Assembly: GCF_013167455.1 (NCBI RefSeq)
Contig: NZ_CP038328.1
Strand: one strand, 5' to 3'
Length of the DNA: 64,000 nt
Origin: Escherichia coli O157:H7
GTDB lineage: Bacteria > Pseudomonadota > Gammaproteobacteria > Enterobacterales > Enterobacteriaceae
In this document: one piece after another, positions 40,064-43,718 of the stretch
Layout of the letters: each line of letters opens with the position of its first letter
Position numbering within the stretch: the first letter of the stretch is position 1
Notes under the pieces: model-generated
Databases searched by the model: none
What the model saw: the letters and a program-made list of their open reading frames with translations, nothing else
What the model was told of the DNA's origin: nothing
Program-made: the position numbers and the translations under genes

Positions 40064-41389
40064 ATGAGCAAAGTAACTCCCCAGCCGAAAATCGGCTTTG
40101 TTTCCCTTGGCTGTCCGAAAAACCTTGTCGATTCAGAGCGTATTCTCACCGAACTCCGCACTGAAGGTTATGACGTGGTACCGAGCTATGACGATGCGGA
40201 CATGGTGATCGTCAACACCTGCGGCTTTATTGACAGCGCGGTACAAGAATCACTGGAAGCCATTGGTGAAGCGTTGAATGAAAACGGCAAGGTAATTGTG
40301 ACCGGTTGTCTGGGGGCAAAAGAAGATCAGATCCGCGAAGTCCACCCGAAAGTGCTGGAAATCACCGGGCCTCATAGCTATGAGCAGGTTCTGGAGCACG
40401 TTCATCACTACGTGCCAAAACCGAAACACAACCCATTCCTGAGCCTGGTGCCAGAACAAGGTGTCAAACTGACGCCGCGTCATTATGCCTATCTGAAAAT
40501 TTCTGAAGGCTGTAATCACCGCTGCACCTTCTGCATTATTCCGTCTATGCGCGGCGACCTGGTGAGCCGTCCGATTGGCGAAGTATTAAGTGAAGCGAAA
40601 CGTCTGGTAGATGCGGGCGTTAAAGAGATTCTGGTGATCTCGCAGGATACTTCCGCCTATGGCGTTGATGTTAAACATCGTACTGGCTTCCACAACGGCG
40701 AGCCGGTAAAAACCAGCATGGTCAGCCTGTGCGAACAGTTATCGAAACTGGGGATCTGGACACGTCTGCACTACGTTTACCCTTATCCGCATGTGGACGA
40801 CGTCATCCCACTGATGGCAGAAGGCAAAATCCTGCCGTATCTGGACATTCCGTTGCAGCACGCCAGCCCGCGCATTCTCAAACTGATGAAGCGTCCGGGT
40901 TCTGTAGATCGCCAACTGGCGCGCATCAAACAGTGGCGCGAAATCTGCCCGGAACTGACCCTACGCTCAACCTTTATTGTCGGCTTCCCTGGCGAGACGG
41001 AAGAAGATTTCCAGATGCTACTCGACTTCCTGAAAGAAGCGCGTCTGGATCGCGTTGGCTGCTTTAAATACAGCCCGGTTGAAGGTGCAGACGCCAATGC
41101 CCTGCCTGACCAGGTTCCGGAAGAAGTGAAAGAAGAACGCTGGAACCGTTTCATGCAGTTGCAGCAGCAGATTTCCGCCGAGCGCCTGCAAGAGAAAGTG
41201 GGCCGTGAAATTCTGGTGATTATCGACGAAGTGGACGAAGAAGGCGCGATTGGTCGCAGCATGGCAGATGCACCGGAAATCGACGGTGCGGTTTATCTCA
41301 ATGGTGAAACCAACGTTAAGCCGGGTGATATCCTGCGTGTGAAAGTCGAGCACGCCGATGAGTACGATTTGTGGGGTAGCCGGGTTTAA
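40064..41389 (+). CDS. rimO: Ribosomal protein S12 methylthiotransferase (radical SAM)
   Basis: 441-aa ORF with radical-SAM CxxxCxxC (CNHRCTFC) and N-terminal MTTase Cys residues. Confidence 0.93.
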
Positions 41390-41572
41390 TTAATCTAAAG
41401 GCAGATCTAACAAGGATATTGTTCTTCGATCTGCCTCTACTACCCTTCCCGATGTCCTACCCTTACGCACAAAATCCCCTGACGCATAAATCGAGAAAAA
41501 TGAATCGTACTCGAGGCAACTCTCACTTTTTCACACCAAATTAAAGTTTTGATCGCAATTACTTGAAATAAG

Positions 41573-41598
41573 CGTAATGGTTACTATAGTAAACATTA
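41573..41598 (+). promoter_or_regulatory. Palindromic operator/promoter element upstream of the toxin gene
   Basis: gtaatggttactatagtaaacattac is a 26-bp near-perfect palindrome (24/26) centred ~30 bp upstream of the toxin start; typical of TA autoregulation. Confidence 0.5.
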
Positions 41599-41614
41599 CC
41601 ACAAGGATGGATGT

Positions 41615-42001
41615 ATGGGTGTGTATAAGGCAAGGCGATTCAGCCAAAGCACGAAAAAACTTGGTATTCACGATAAAGTTCTCATGGCTGCCGCTGAAGA
41701 AGTGATGCAAGGCATATGGGAGGCTGATTTAGGTAGCGGTGTCATCAAAAAACGGTTACCCCTCCAACAAGGAAAGAGTGGTGGAGCCAGAACAATTATC
41801 TTTTTTAAATCAGCAAATCATGTGTTTTTTTATGATGGTTGGTCCAAGAGTGGTCTAAGCAGTAAAGGAAGCAAAGAAATCGAAGATGATGAACTGGCAG
41901 CCTACAAAAAAATGGCAAATGCATTTCTGGCCTTTAGCAATAAGCAAATAGAGGATTTGATCGAAACTGGCTTCTTGATTGAGGTGAAAAATGAGCGATA
42001 A
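41615..42001 (+). CDS. HigB-like (RelE/ParE superfamily) type II toxin
   Basis: 128-aa protein; motif QQGKSGGARTIIFF resembles the GKRGGSRIIYYF core of HigB-family toxins; toxin gene precedes and overlaps the antitoxin gene (higBA order); absent at this position in K-12. Confidence 0.65.
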   Translation: MGVYKARRFSQSTKKLGIHDKVLMAAAEEVMQGIWEADLGSGVIKKRLPLQQGKSGGARTIIFFKSANHVFFYDGWSKSGLSSKGSKEIEDDELAAYKKMANAFLAFSNKQIEDLIETGFLIEVKNER

Positions 42002-42320
42002 ATTACAAATGATGCTGGAAGATGCAAAGGAACTGAATGCACTGGGCCTGATGTCTGATAGTGAGGTTGATGCCATTGCCGTCATGGTCAAAGCCCGTGA
42101 AGTCAGCGCCCGTATAGCCAAAGTCAAATCAATGACGGGTGAAGAGATCAAAGCCATCCGCACCCGATACGGCATGTCACAATCCGTGCTGGCACATACA
42201 ATGGGAATGTCAAAAGAAAGTGTCTCGAAATGGGAACGTAATGAAATAAAACCGAGCGGCCCGGCACTACGTATTTTGAATACATTGGCAATAAAAGGGC
42301 CGGAAGTTTTTGCAAAGTAA
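41991..42320 (+). CDS. HigA-like antitoxin, XRE-family helix-turn-helix
   Basis: 109-aa protein with HTH (IRTRYGMSQSVLAHTMGMSKESVSKWERNE); start overlaps toxin stop by 11 nt. Confidence 0.65.
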   Translation: MSDKLQMMLEDAKELNALGLMSDSEVDAIAVMVKAREVSARIAKVKSMTGEEIKAIRTRYGMSQSVLAHTMGMSKESVSKWERNEIKPSGPALRILNTLAIKGPEVFAK

Positions 42321-42389
42321 AATGTTTGCAAATGATTTACCACATTCATTAGTACCCCTTGATTCAGGGGTACTAACACTATTCTAATT

Positions 42390-43718
42390 CTACTGCCAGC
42401 TAATCTGAGCCCTGCCGTTTTTCTTACTCTTATACAGCCGCTCATCCGCCAGCATTTTCAAGCGTTCGACGGTAGTACATTCATTTGAATGCGCTACACC
42501 GATACTGGTGCTTAAATTAATGCTTCCCACCTGGAAATGAACGATTTCTTTTAGAATCGATAGTAACTCTTCCAGCGTGCCGCCAGTATAAATCACCGCA
42601 AATTCGTCACCGCCGAAGCGGTAGACTTTACCTTTATCTACCGGGATCTGTGATTTAAGGATTTTCACCACTTTCATCAACACTTCATCGCCCAGCAAAT
42701 GACCGAAGGTGTCGTTAATATTTTTGAATTTATCGACGTCAAACAGGCACAAATAACCGCCTTTTTCCGGCAGCGCTTTTAAATCTTCGTCAAAGGATTT
42801 TCTACCCATTGCTTTGGTCAGGTCGTCCAGGAACGCCGAGTTATACATACTGTAGAGTTTTTTGACATCGGCAGCCGAAAAGAAAAGCCCGCCATCCAGT
42901 ACGCGTTCAAAATGGTTATTAATAATGGCTTCTTTCTCCACAATACCACGATTAATCACTCTGCGTACCAGATAGAGGCAACTGGCACCCGATATCACTG
43001 CCACCAATGCGGCAAAGAAAATAATCAATGTACAGACCCGCAAATAAACATCTTTTTTATACGCAAATACGTACAATCCGGTCGGCAAATAGGCGAAGTG
43101 CTCCATCGCTTCCGAAACGGTGAAGATGGCGTTTTTAGCATTATATTCATCACCGGTCACCGGTTTACCGTTCTTAAACAGAGAGAACATCAGGTTCTCG
43201 CTGTCCATCGCCAGCGATTTTGACAGTAAAGAAAAACGCTCCAGACCAAGCAAAAATATCAGACTACGATTGTGAGTTACCGGATAGAGGTAATAGACGA
43301 AGGTTTTACCGTCAAAAGAGATAAACCCTGTATTTTTGACATGTCGATACTTCACAACCTGCATAATATCTGCACAATAATTTTTCTCGAACTCCTTTAC
43401 CTGAATACATTCGTCACTGGAAATCAGATAAGGACCGACATCGTACAAATAAGAGGGTGAAACCGAGTCGGCGTAAGCTGTGCGTAAGCCAACCAACAGC
43501 TGTTCCTCCGTGGGATTTAGCGTGTTGATAAGATCAATTGCCACGCTACGCCGATATTCAGCAATATTTGCCACCGCAAAAGCAGTATCAATAACGGACT
43601 GTTTCAGGCTATACACCCGTTCCTTTACCATTTGAGTGTAGATCCCGCAGGCAACTGCTGAAATCATGATAAAAATCAGCAGACTGACTGTAAGTACGAA
43701 CTTATTGATTCTGGACAT
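42390..43718 (-). CDS. dgcI: Diguanylate cyclase DgcI (YliF), membrane-anchored GGDEF protein
   Basis: 442-aa ORF with GGDEF active site (RFGGDEF) and N-terminal TM/periplasmic region. Confidence 0.9.

What the first reader, a model, noticed from the sequence alone, without database searches (positions are those of the whole stretch)
41573..42320. HigB/HigA-like toxin-antitoxin module with palindromic operator inserted between rimO and dgcI
As I recall K-12, rimO and dgcI (yliF) are adjacent, so this pair is an insertion. The first ORF (128 aa) carries a GKSGGARTIIFF motif resembling the HigB (RelE/ParE superfamily) core. The second (109 aa) is an XRE-type HTH protein whose start overlaps the toxin stop by 11 nt. 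A 26-bp near-perfect palindrome sits ~30 bp upstream. Toxin-first order, overlap and operator together form a classic type II TA architecture. The family is described; the interest is that it is a strain-specific addition beside c-di-GMP genes and a plausible stabiliser or phage-defence element.
Basis: partly seen in the sequence, partly recalled or inferred. Interest (0 to 1): 0.5.

Follow-up and report, generated by a model that had tools for sequence, protein, structure and literature searches.

The report
HigBA2-type toxin-antitoxin pair, rimO-dgcI spacer
This is an ordinary, already annotated but experimentally untested toxin-antitoxin gene pair of the Vibrio cholerae HigB2/HigA2 family, carried by about one in five E. 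coli strains; it looks like an old resident of this chromosomal spot, not a recent strain-specific insertion.

Summary
Two overlapping ORFs (toxin 41615-42001, 128 aa; antitoxin 41991-42320, 109 aa; 11-nt overlap) follow a 26-bp palindrome (41574-41599, 12 of 13 arm positions). That palindrome is the only one of its kind in the 64-kb window. The window is E. coli O157:H7 Sakai, where RefSeq already annotates the pair.

The toxin matches Pfam PF06296 over its full length (E 7.7e-33). This is the V. cholerae HigB-2 family, not Rts1 HigB or Gp49. For both proteins the nearest solved structure, by profile and by predicted fold, is V. cholerae HigB2 or HigA2. Four of five HigB2 active-site residues are invariant; the tyrosine is a tryptophan.

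The palindrome spans the -10 element of a TTGAAA-16-TATAGT promoter. Its core TTACTATAGTAA is unchanged in 8 of 9 related loci, although synonymous sites are saturated. Both genes are under strong purifying selection.

The "insertion" reading is weak:
- 1138 of 5426 complete E. coli genomes carry the pair, and 4285 have the K-12 46-bp spacer.
- There are no mobile-element marks.
- The pair has diverged about as much as its flanks.
- Orthologues in Kluyvera and a related genus sit beside gsiD, with no dgcI or pdeI.

Verdict: an uncharacterised member of a known family, of low interest.

The parts
41390..42389 (.). The 1000-bp allele-specific segment between the rimO stop and the dgcI stop. K-12-type strains have an unrelated 46-bp spacer here instead.
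   Evidence: only TTAAT after the rimO stop is shared, and the dgcI stop codon is TAG here but TAA in K-12; 1138 genomes carry this segment and 4285 carry the 46-bp spacer, out of 5426.
41396..41439 (+). Hairpin just after rimO (18-nt arms, 83% complementary, 8-nt loop). It is probably the rimO terminator of this allele.
   Evidence: I2. The terminator role is inferred; the consensus terminator scan did not call it.
41563..41590 (+). Sigma-70-type promoter: -35 TTGAAA (41563-41568), 16-nt spacer, -10 TATAGT (41585-41590).
   Evidence: 10 of 12 consensus matches. The same TTG...-TATAGT layout recurs in orthologous loci. The transcription start site has not been mapped.
41574..41599 (.). Operator palindrome GTAATGGTTACTATAGTAAACATTAC. 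The core TTACTATAGTAA (41581-41592) covers the -10 element. It can also be read as two 11-bp GTAAT-N-ATTAC-like units, 15 bp apart.
   Evidence: I8; unique in the window. The core is invariant in 8 of 9 loci whose toxins are 51-100% identical, while synonymous sites are saturated. Protein binding has not been tested.
41603..41607 (+). Shine-Dalgarno AAGGA, 7 nt before the toxin ATG.
   Evidence: Read directly from the sequence.
41615..42001 (+). Toxin gene, 128 aa (RefSeq ECs_5400). It belongs to PF06296, the HigB-2-type RelE/ParE-fold family, whose characterised members are ribosome-dependent mRNA endonucleases.
   Evidence: PF06296, E 7.7e-33, model positions 1-120 of 120. (profile hits only VcHigB-2 in the PDB, E 4e-4). 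(AF2 pLDDT 85.9; the top 8 Foldseek hits are VcHigB2). (K45, R47, R59, K78 invariant). (dN/dS 0.04-0.09).
41981..41986 (+). Shine-Dalgarno GAGGTG for the antitoxin, inside the 3' end of the toxin gene. This suggests translational coupling.
   Evidence: Read directly from the sequence.
41991..42320 (+). Antitoxin and repressor gene, 109 aa (RefSeq ECs_5399). It has an N-terminal two-helix segment (residues 3-41 in the model) and a C-terminal XRE HTH domain (about residues 48-105).
   Evidence: HTH_3 at 53-94, E 3e-9. (the profile's best PDB hit is VcHigA-2, E 1.4e-10, residues 48-102 against 38-92). (AF2 pLDDT 88.6; top Foldseek hits are VcHigA2, with TM 0.81-0.83 and rmsd 1.2-1.4 A to its C-terminal domain). 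(an equivalent HTH gene follows the toxin in 12 of 12 loci).
42349..42376 (.). Perfect 11-bp stem with a 6-nt loop (TTAGTACCCCT/AGGGGTACTAA) between the antitoxin stop and the convergent dgcI stop. It is probably a bidirectional terminator.
   Evidence: I12. There is no T-run, so the consensus scan did not call it. The terminator role is inferred.

Best explanation
This is a chromosomal type II toxin-antitoxin operon of the HigB-2/HigA-2 kind (Pfam PF06296 toxin plus XRE-HTH antitoxin).

Proposed mechanism, inferred by homology:
1. One promoter (TTGAAA-16-TATAGT) transcribes the toxin gene and then the antitoxin gene. The antitoxin has its own strong ribosome-binding site inside the toxin's 3' end.
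2. The toxin is a RelE-fold endonuclease that enters the ribosomal A site and cuts mRNA being translated. It uses a basic active site (K45, R47, R59, K78) plus an aromatic residue (W76).
3. The antitoxin dimerises through its C-terminal HTH domain. Its N-terminal helical segment wraps the toxin and keeps it off the ribosome.
4. The antitoxin, alone or with bound toxin as co-repressor, sits on the palindrome that covers the -10 element and shuts off the operon.
5. If antitoxin supply falls, free toxin halts translation.

Shown here in silico: family membership of both proteins, predicted folds, conservation of active-site residues, strict gene coupling, operator position and conservation, and purifying selection. 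Inferred only: toxicity, neutralisation, DNA binding and any physiological role.

At population level the pair is an old presence/absence polymorphism in the gsiD-rimO interval, not a recent mobile insertion.
For: Toxin:
- PF06296 match over the full length, E 7.7e-33.
- A profile of 26 homologues hits only V. cholerae HigB-2 in the PDB.
- The AF2 model (pLDDT 85.9) has VcHigB2 as its top 8 Foldseek hits, followed by other RelE/ParE-fold proteins.
- The VcHigB2 active-site residues K49, R51, R64, Y82 and K84 (PMC5416850; PMC10098735) align to K45, R47, R59, W76 and K78. In the family alignment the four basic residues are invariant and W76 is at least 90% conserved.

Antitoxin:
- HTH_3 domain.
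- The profile's best PDB hit is VcHigA-2, E 1.4e-10.
- The model's top hits are VcHigA2.

Operon and operator:
- Toxin-then-HTH coupling with a 4-41-nt overlap in 12 of 12 loci.
- The promoter and palindrome geometry matches the mapped V. cholerae operator, which runs from after the -35 over the -10 (PMC11006873).
- The operator core is invariant in 8 of 9 loci.
- dN/dS is 0.04-0.12 for both genes, with pS 0.6-0.9.

Family and locus variants:
- Family members are experimentally proven TAs in V. cholerae and in Coxiella (ToxP/AntitoxP).
- A natural in-frame deletion allele removes R59, W76 and K78 (P0013), as expected if the intact toxin is harmful.
Against: - No experiment exists on this locus. 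No paper was found for ECs0914, Z1059, Z1060, ECs_5399 or ECs_5400.
- The catalytic tyrosine of VcHigB2 is a tryptophan here, and phenylalanine or tyrosine in more distant relatives.
- Sequence identity to VcHigB2 is only 13-15%, and TM-scores are moderate at 0.5-0.68.
- The toxin has no NCBIfam model. The antitoxin scores below the curated cut-offs for MqsA and NadS.
- The antitoxin's N-terminal segment is 47 aa and modelled as two confident helices. VcHigA2 has a 36-aa disordered segment that folds into a helix plus a strand on binding.
- The operator is a 26-bp composite palindrome rather than a 7-N5-7 repeat, so the binding stoichiometry may differ.
Confidence: 0.78

Rival explanations
1. 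The pair is an attenuated or domesticated module. The 'toxin' no longer cleaves mRNA efficiently and serves mainly as a co-repressor, so the pair behaves as a self-contained autoregulated regulator with no addiction or growth-arrest phenotype.
For: The VcHigB2 catalytic Tyr82 is replaced by Trp76. The pair is stably chromosomal, dispensable in 79% of strains and absent from true plasmids. Truncated and deleted toxin alleles circulate.
Against: The four basic active-site residues are invariant across homologues down to about 40% identity. Toxin dN/dS is 0.04-0.09. The antitoxin is always retained and coupled. The existence of knock-out alleles argues that the intact form carries a cost.
Confidence: 0.1
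2. Its main biological role is abortive-infection phage defence, or exclusion or stabilisation of mobile DNA. The toxin would be released when a phage shuts off host transcription.
For: RelE/ParE-superfamily toxins are discussed as defence toxins (PMC11980606). Family members occur on 196 plasmids, 6 viral contigs and one E. coli phage. Both proteins hit PHROG families of unknown function. V. cholerae higBA-2 and Coxiella toxP/antitoxP stabilise plasmids.
Against: The toxin hits no PADLOC model. The locus lies between core genes (rimO, dgcI), with no defence island, prophage or integrase nearby. The E. coli allele is not on genuine plasmids, because the hits at 99% or more are 0.7-4.9-Mb records. 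No phage data exist.
Confidence: 0.12
3. The pair is a recent horizontally acquired insertion into the rimO-dgcI spacer, and the K-12 arrangement is ancestral.
For: K-12, UTI89 and ST131 strains share the 46-bp spacer at 98.9-100% identity. The representative genomes of other Escherichia species gave no hit in the species-level scan (that scan depends on peptide patterns, so it is weak). TA modules are generally mobile.
Against: - There is no target duplication, terminal repeat or mobility gene, and the two alleles share only 5 nt.
- TA divergence between Sakai and two other lineages (1.2-1.5%) matches rimO (0.8-1.0%) and dgcI (1.7-1.9%).
- Orthologues lie next to gsiD in four non-E. coli genomes. 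One of these has rimO 1.35 kb upstream and another has bssR upstream.
- Synonymous divergence of the pair (pS 0.69-0.90) is similar to or somewhat above that of gsiD and rimO (0.60-0.70).
Confidence: 0.25

Closest known systems
Vibrio cholerae HigB-2/HigA-2 (VCA0468/0469; PDB 5JA8, 5JAA, 5J9I, 8A0X)
   Same: - Same Pfam toxin family, PF06296.
- It is the best and only solved relative of the toxin, by profile and by fold, and the best solved relative of the antitoxin.
- Toxin-first order.
- The antitoxin has the same layout: an N-terminal neutralising segment plus a C-terminal XRE HTH dimerisation and DNA-binding domain.
- The operator is an inverted repeat running from after the -35 across the -10.
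- The basic active-site residues are conserved.
- The doubled hydrophobic pairs after the catalytic Arg (RTIIFF here, RIIYYF in V. cholerae) are the feature that allows the one-residue strand slide described in PMC5416850.
   Different: - Only 13-15% identity.
- The toxin is 128 aa against 110 aa, with two extra C-terminal helices and a terminal strand in the model.
- Trp replaces the catalytic Tyr82.
- The beta2-beta3 loop is shorter.
- The antitoxin N-terminal segment is longer (47 aa against 36 aa) and modelled as two helices.
- The operator is a 26-bp composite palindrome, not TGTACGC-N5-GCGTACA.
- It lies among core genes rather than in a superintegron.
'Bicistronic relE-yiaG modules' of the PF_RelE family (Gerdes 2025, PMC11980606, section 22)
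   Same: A PF06296 toxin lies upstream of a YiaG-like XRE-HTH protein. That paper's model of the YiaG partner ('two parallel helices' joined to an HTH resembling HigA2) matches the model obtained here. The antitoxin also weakly matches the K-12 YiaG model PRK10072.
   Different: That paper describes toxins with extended, disordered N-termini. This toxin has none, since the Pfam model starts at residue 1. The extended ORFs among the homologues seen here (P0036, P0038, L010) read through the operator, so those extensions look like start-codon artefacts. I could not establish whether the E. coli example in that paper (VREC0535) is the same locus.
Coxiella burnetii QpH1 ToxP/AntitoxP (CBUA0028/0027)
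   Same: It is a HigBA2 homologue shown experimentally to be toxic, antitoxin-neutralised, translation-inhibiting and promoter-binding. The toxin query matches 19 Coxiella plasmid records.
   Different: It is plasmid-borne with a stabilising role and keeps the catalytic Tyr. I did not check that the Coxiella hits are ToxP itself.
Rts1 HigBA (PF05015), E. coli K-12 HigBA/YgjNM (PF09907), Gp49/HigB-like (PF05973), MqsRA
   Same: RelE/ParE superfamily fold, toxin-first gene order and an HTH antitoxin. The antitoxin HTH is distantly similar to the C-terminal domain of MqsA.
   Different: None of these toxin families scored in the Pfam scan. The antitoxin lacks the N-terminal CxxC zinc domain of MqsA and falls below the TIGR03830 cut-off (47.1 against 61.8 bits). 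In Rts1 HigBA the antitoxin does not cover the active site, and the HigA fold and operator differ.

Membership tests
PF06296 ('RelE'; HigB-2-type) toxin | Significant full-length match to the Pfam family model | tested here: met
   E 7.7e-33, 113.7 bits, residues 1-124 on model positions 1-120 of 120. All 64 close homologues also carry PF06296 or are fragments.
PF06296 ('RelE'; HigB-2-type) toxin | RelE/ParE (BECR) fold closest to VcHigB2 | tested here: met
   AF2 model pLDDT 85.9. The top 8 Foldseek PDB hits are VcHigB2 (E 2e-4 to 6e-3, TM 0.49-0.68), followed by Cami1, YafQ, HP0894 and ParE. This is a prediction, not a solved structure.
PF06296 ('RelE'; HigB-2-type) toxin | Basic active-site residues (VcHigB2 K49, R51, R64, K84) | tested here: met
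   They align to K45, R47, R59 and K78, all invariant in 26 homologues.
PF06296 ('RelE'; HigB-2-type) toxin | Catalytic tyrosine (VcHigB2 Y82) | tested here: not met
   The aligned residue is W76, at least 90% conserved as Trp in close homologues and Phe or Tyr in distant ones. An aromatic residue is kept but the hydroxyl is not.
PF06296 ('RelE'; HigB-2-type) toxin | Ribosome-dependent mRNA cleavage and growth arrest | not testable with these tools
   This needs expression and in vitro translation assays.
HigA-2-type antitoxin | C-terminal XRE HTH domain homologous to VcHigA2, preceded by an N-terminal toxin-binding segment | tested here: met
   (HTH_3 at residues 53-94). (VcHigA-2 is the best PDB hit, E 1.4e-10). 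(5j9i: TM 0.81-0.83, rmsd 1.2-1.4 A). A 47-aa N-terminal segment is present. Its binding to the toxin is not tested.
Type II TA operon (HigBA2 layout) | Toxin gene first, antitoxin overlapping or adjacent, and co-conserved | tested here: met
   The overlap here is 11 nt. The same arrangement is found in 12 of 12 related loci.
Type II TA operon (HigBA2 layout) | Autoregulation through an inverted-repeat operator overlapping the promoter | tested here: inconclusive
   The palindrome spans the -10 element, is unique in the window and has a core conserved in 8 of 9 loci. Binding and repression are not testable here.
Rts1 HigB-like (PF05015), K-12 HigB (PF09907), Gp49 (PF05973) | Match to the family HMM | tested here: not met
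   One search lists only PF06296 with E of 0.001 or below. None of these families appears, even at E up to 10.
MqsRA | Antitoxin with an N-terminal CxxC...CxxC zinc domain, scoring above the TIGR03830 cut-off | tested here: not met
   47.1 bits against a cut-off of 61.8, matching only profile positions 51-122, the HTH half. The 109-aa sequence contains no cysteine.
Known anti-phage defence systems (PADLOC-DB v2) | Toxin or effector matches a defence-system model | tested here: not met
   no family for the toxin. The antitoxin hits only generic HTH models.
Mobile-element insertion | Target-site duplication, terminal repeats, a mobility gene, or an empty site recoverable by excision | tested here: not met
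   the two alleles share only TTAAT, there are no flanking direct or inverted repeats, and there is no integrase or transposase.

The most novel reading that the evidence does not exclude
The pair may be an ancient, trans-generic resident of the gsiD-rimO interval, kept as a long-lived presence/absence polymorphism in E. coli. This would imply a selectable host benefit, such as phage exclusion or stress-linked translational arrest. A related possibility is that its 26-bp composite operator, readable as two GTAAT-N-ATTAC units 15 bp apart around an invariant TTACTATAGTAA core, binds two antitoxin dimers. That would be a regulatory geometry different from the single-site V. cholerae paradigm.
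Probability: 0.15. Interest if true: 0.35.

Novelty: new member of a known kind. Interest (0 to 1): 0.15.

Why it matters
It matters little beyond housekeeping.
- It gives a precise family assignment (HigB-2/HigA-2, PF06296) for a pair that RefSeq labels only generically.
- It predicts an operator and promoter.
- It offers a clean natural test case: about 21% of strains carry the pair and about 79% lack it, at one fixed chromosomal site.

If the pair is functional, it adds one more ribosome-dependent mRNase to the O157:H7 TA complement that K-12 lacks. The synteny with Kluyvera cautions against reading every K-12-absent TA as a recent insertion.

Tried and rejected
- NCBIfam gave no model for the toxin and only sub-threshold hits for the antitoxin.
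- A single-sequence phmmer search of the toxin against the PDB found nothing. A profile was needed.
- Rfam found no RNA family in 41300-42500.
- The species-level genome scan returned only 4 loci. One is a 1.2-kb E. coli contaminant binned in a 'Collinsella' MAG, and one is a weak Gimesia hit that I did not use.
- Strain BS-01 appeared to hold a decayed copy lacking the antitoxin. The alignment shows homopolymer-ridden assembly noise, so I discarded it.
- I tried to count genomes carrying the 24-aa toxin deletion with a junction query. This failed because BLAST joined the two flanking pieces in intact genomes.
- I tried to fetch reference strain UMN026 for phylogroup mapping, but the accession is not in the collection. 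Phylogroup distribution therefore rests on a few named strains.
- Literature searches by locus tag found nothing relevant. Two O157 transcriptome papers do not mention the locus.
- The supplement of PMC11980606 does not list this protein's accessions.
- I considered a T-A complex model and dropped it, because the structure tool reports no interface metrics.
Full report
**1. What is there**

The window is E. coli O157:H7 Sakai. The 1000-bp rimO-dgcI spacer (41390-42389) is 100% identical to NC_002695.2. RefSeq annotates two genes there: ECs_5400 'addiction module toxin RelE' and ECs_5399 'transcriptional regulator'.

The toxin gene is 41615-42001 (128 aa, containing GKSGGARTIIFF). The antitoxin gene is 41991-42320 (109 aa), and the two overlap by 11 nt.

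The palindrome GTAATGGTTACTA|TAGTAAACATTAC lies at 41574-41599, with 12 of 13 arm positions complementary. It is the only 13+13 palindrome with at most one mismatch in the 64 kb, against 0.07 expected by chance. Its consensus form has no other match with up to 3 mismatches.

A sigma-70-like promoter, TTGAAA-16-TATAGT, spans 41563-41590, so the -10 hexamer lies in the centre of the palindrome. An AAGGA ribosome-binding site sits 7 nt before the toxin ATG. A GAGGTG site sits 4 nt before the antitoxin ATG, inside the toxin gene. Two hairpins bracket the module: 41396-41439 after rimO, and a perfect 11-bp stem at 42349-42376 before the convergent dgcI stop. No Rfam family matches the region.

**2. 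Family assignment**

The toxin matches Pfam PF06296 ('RelE') end to end, with E 7.7e-33. No other RelE/ParE-superfamily family scored; HigB-like PF05015, HigB PF09907 and Gp49 PF05973 are all absent from the results.

According to Gerdes (mBio 2025, PMC11980606), PF06296 is the family of V. cholerae HigB-2. Its members are ribosome-dependent mRNases with toxin-then-antitoxin gene order.

- A single-sequence search of the PDB found nothing.
- A profile of 26 homologues (A1) hit only VcHigB-2 chains, at E 4e-4. The alignment covers the GG..K.R...GK.GG.R.I..F core.
- An AlphaFold2 model (pLDDT 85.9) has VcHigB2 as its eight best Foldseek hits. Cami1, YafQ, HP0894, ParE and HigB1 follow.

The VcHigB2 active-site residues are K49, R51, R64, Y82 and K84 (PMC5416850; listed in PMC10098735). 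They align to K45, R47, R59, W76 and K78. The four basic residues are invariant in A1 and W76 is at least 90% conserved. More distant relatives have Phe or Tyr at that position. The tyrosine criterion is therefore not met, although an aromatic residue is retained. The RTIIFF strand keeps the doubled hydrophobic pairs (RIIYYF in V. cholerae) that permit the strand-register slide described for HigB2 inhibition. That last point is my inference.

The antitoxin has an HTH_3 domain at residues 53-94. It scores below the curated cut-offs for the MqsA, NadS and YiaG models.

- A profile of 11 cognate antitoxins (A3) finds VcHigA-2 as the best solved relative. E is 1.4e-10, with residues 48-102 aligned to 38-92 of 103.
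- Its AF2 model (pLDDT 88.6) has two N-terminal helices (3-17 and 23-41) followed by the HTH domain.
- The top Foldseek hits are VcHigA2. The C-terminal domain superposes with TM 0.81-0.83 and rmsd 1.2-1.4 A.

This model matches the description of YiaG-like partners in the 'relE-yiaG' modules of PMC11980606. The family is large: 2458 clusters at 50% identity score E of 0.001 or below.

**3. Comparative evidence for function**

I examined twelve loci in total. They comprise this window, four Kluyvera or Enterobacteriaceae loci, two other enterobacterial contexts (Kluyvera-like L021 and L023 were added later), and six viral contigs. In all twelve, the toxin gene is followed by an overlapping 103-113-aa HTH gene.

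Both genes are under strong purifying selection. dN/dS is 0.04-0.12, and synonymous sites between genera are near saturation at pS 0.6-0.9.

Despite that saturation, the operator core TTACTATAGTAA is identical in 8 of 9 loci whose toxins are 51-100% identical. These loci sit in at least four different genomic contexts. The right outer arm (A/G)TTAC is kept in all nine, and the left arm GTAAT in five. More distant members carry a different palindrome (GCAATctATTGC) at the same position between the -35 and -10.

This layout mirrors the footprinted V. cholerae operator, which starts after the -35 and extends over the -10 (PMC11006873). Binding itself is not tested here.

**4. Insertion or old resident?**

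K-12 has rimO and dgcI 46 bp apart. However, that spacer is an unrelated sequence with its own hairpin. Only TTAAT after the rimO stop is shared, and even the dgcI stop codon differs (TAG here, TAA in K-12). There is no target duplication, terminal repeat or mobility gene.

Among 5426 complete E. coli genomes, 1138 carry the module (1128 of them at 80% or more coverage, essentially all chromosomal). Another 4285 carry the K-12-type spacer.
- Carriers include O157:H7 strains, ATCC 8739 and a protein with the accession prefix of strain 042.
- Non-carriers include K-12, MC4100, UTI89 and ST131.

Assigning these strains to phylogroups relies on my own knowledge, not on a test done here.

Between Sakai and two other carrier lineages, the module differs by 1.2-1.5%. 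The flanks differ by 0.8-1.0% (rimO) and 1.7-1.9% (dgcI).

Orthologues at 68-74% amino-acid identity lie convergent to gsiD in four genomes:
- Kluyvera sichuanensis, with bssR upstream (L005).
- K. georgiana (L007).
- A Kluyvera-like assembly (L021).
- Enterobacteriaceae UBA5654, with rimO 1.35 kb upstream (L004).

All four lack pdeI and dgcI at this spot. Synonymous divergence of the pair between E. coli and these genomes (0.69-0.90) is similar to, or somewhat above, that of gsiD and rimO (0.60-0.70). Between the two Kluyvera species the pair has diverged more than gsiD (0.74-0.78 against 0.41), so allelic replacement cannot be excluded.

The simplest reading is a long-standing occupant of the gsiD-rimO interval that has become a presence/absence polymorphism in E. 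coli. The neighbouring c-di-GMP genes are incidental. The polarity of the E. coli indel remains unresolved.

**5. Role**

The toxin hits no PADLOC model and the locus lies in no defence island or prophage. The E. coli allele is not on genuine plasmids: the three 'plasmid' hits at 99% or more are 0.73-4.9-Mb records.

Distant family members are common on plasmids. There are 196 plasmid records, including 19 from Coxiella and 36 from Piscirickettsia. They are rare in phages, with one record and six viral contigs. Experimentally, family members stabilise plasmids and arrest translation. Stabiliser or defence roles for this chromosomal copy remain speculation.

**6. Novelty and verdict**

No paper was found on this locus. 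It is an annotated but uncharacterised member of a well-described family. The differences are of degree only: a longer toxin C-terminus, Trp in place of the catalytic Tyr, a longer helical antitoxin N-terminus, and a composite 26-bp operator. Interest is low.

Noticed in passing
Homologues P0036, P0038 and P0041; L010 3962-4387: Annotated 'N-terminally extended' toxin homologues (141-179 aa) read through the operator. Their extensions contain ...TIV(T)..., which is ACTATAGTA(AC) translated. The conserved start in these homologues is a GTG at the canonical position (P0030 begins VAFYK). The 'extended, heterogeneous, disordered N-termini' reported for PF_RelE-YiaG toxins in PMC11980606 may therefore be start-codon artefacts.
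   Followed up: partly
window 41774-41782 and 41846-41854: A 9-bp direct repeat, AAGAGTGGT, occurs twice 72 nt apart inside the toxin gene. An E. coli allele (P0013, 104 aa, seen on 23 contigs) has exactly the intervening 24 codons deleted in frame. The deletion removes R59, W76 and K78, making it a natural toxin knock-out. Several frameshifted toxin variants also circulate (P0024, P0025, P0037, P0049). Some of these may be sequencing errors in the A/T homopolymer runs.
   Followed up: partly
window 42317-42340: A second, weaker palindrome (GTAAAATGTTTGCA/TGCAAATGATTTAC, 79% complementary) lies directly after the antitoxin stop. Its GTAA...TTAC ends resemble the operator half-sites. It is not conserved in the Kluyvera or UBA5654 loci, so it is probably chance.
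   Followed up: partly
L003 (JAIJJM010000872.1, 1198 bp): A contig binned in a 'Collinsella sp.' MAG encodes this toxin at 99% identity. It is almost certainly E. coli contamination of the bin.
   Followed up: no
PLSDB records CP088669.1, NZ_CP134663.1 and NZ_CP141089.1: These records are filed as plasmids but are 0.73, 4.90 and 4.94 Mb long and carry this chromosomal module at 99.2% identity. They look like mislabelled chromosomes or chimeric assemblies.
   Followed up: no
L014 (E. coli BS-01, NZ_CP172816.1 853511-854177): An apparent degraded copy of the module is in fact low-quality consensus made of long homopolymer runs, not biological decay. In the same record pdeI has an internal stop.
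   Followed up: yes
L011 5337-7000 (E. coli MSHS 133): The neighbouring pdeI is annotated as frameshifted with an internal stop in this TA-carrying urinary isolate.
   Followed up: no
L004 1738-2688 (Enterobacteriaceae UBA5654): In this relative, a 316-aa ORF of unknown function sits between rimO and the TA pair, and pdeI-dgcI are absent. The gsiD-rimO interval therefore seems to be a variable spot across genera.
   Followed up: no
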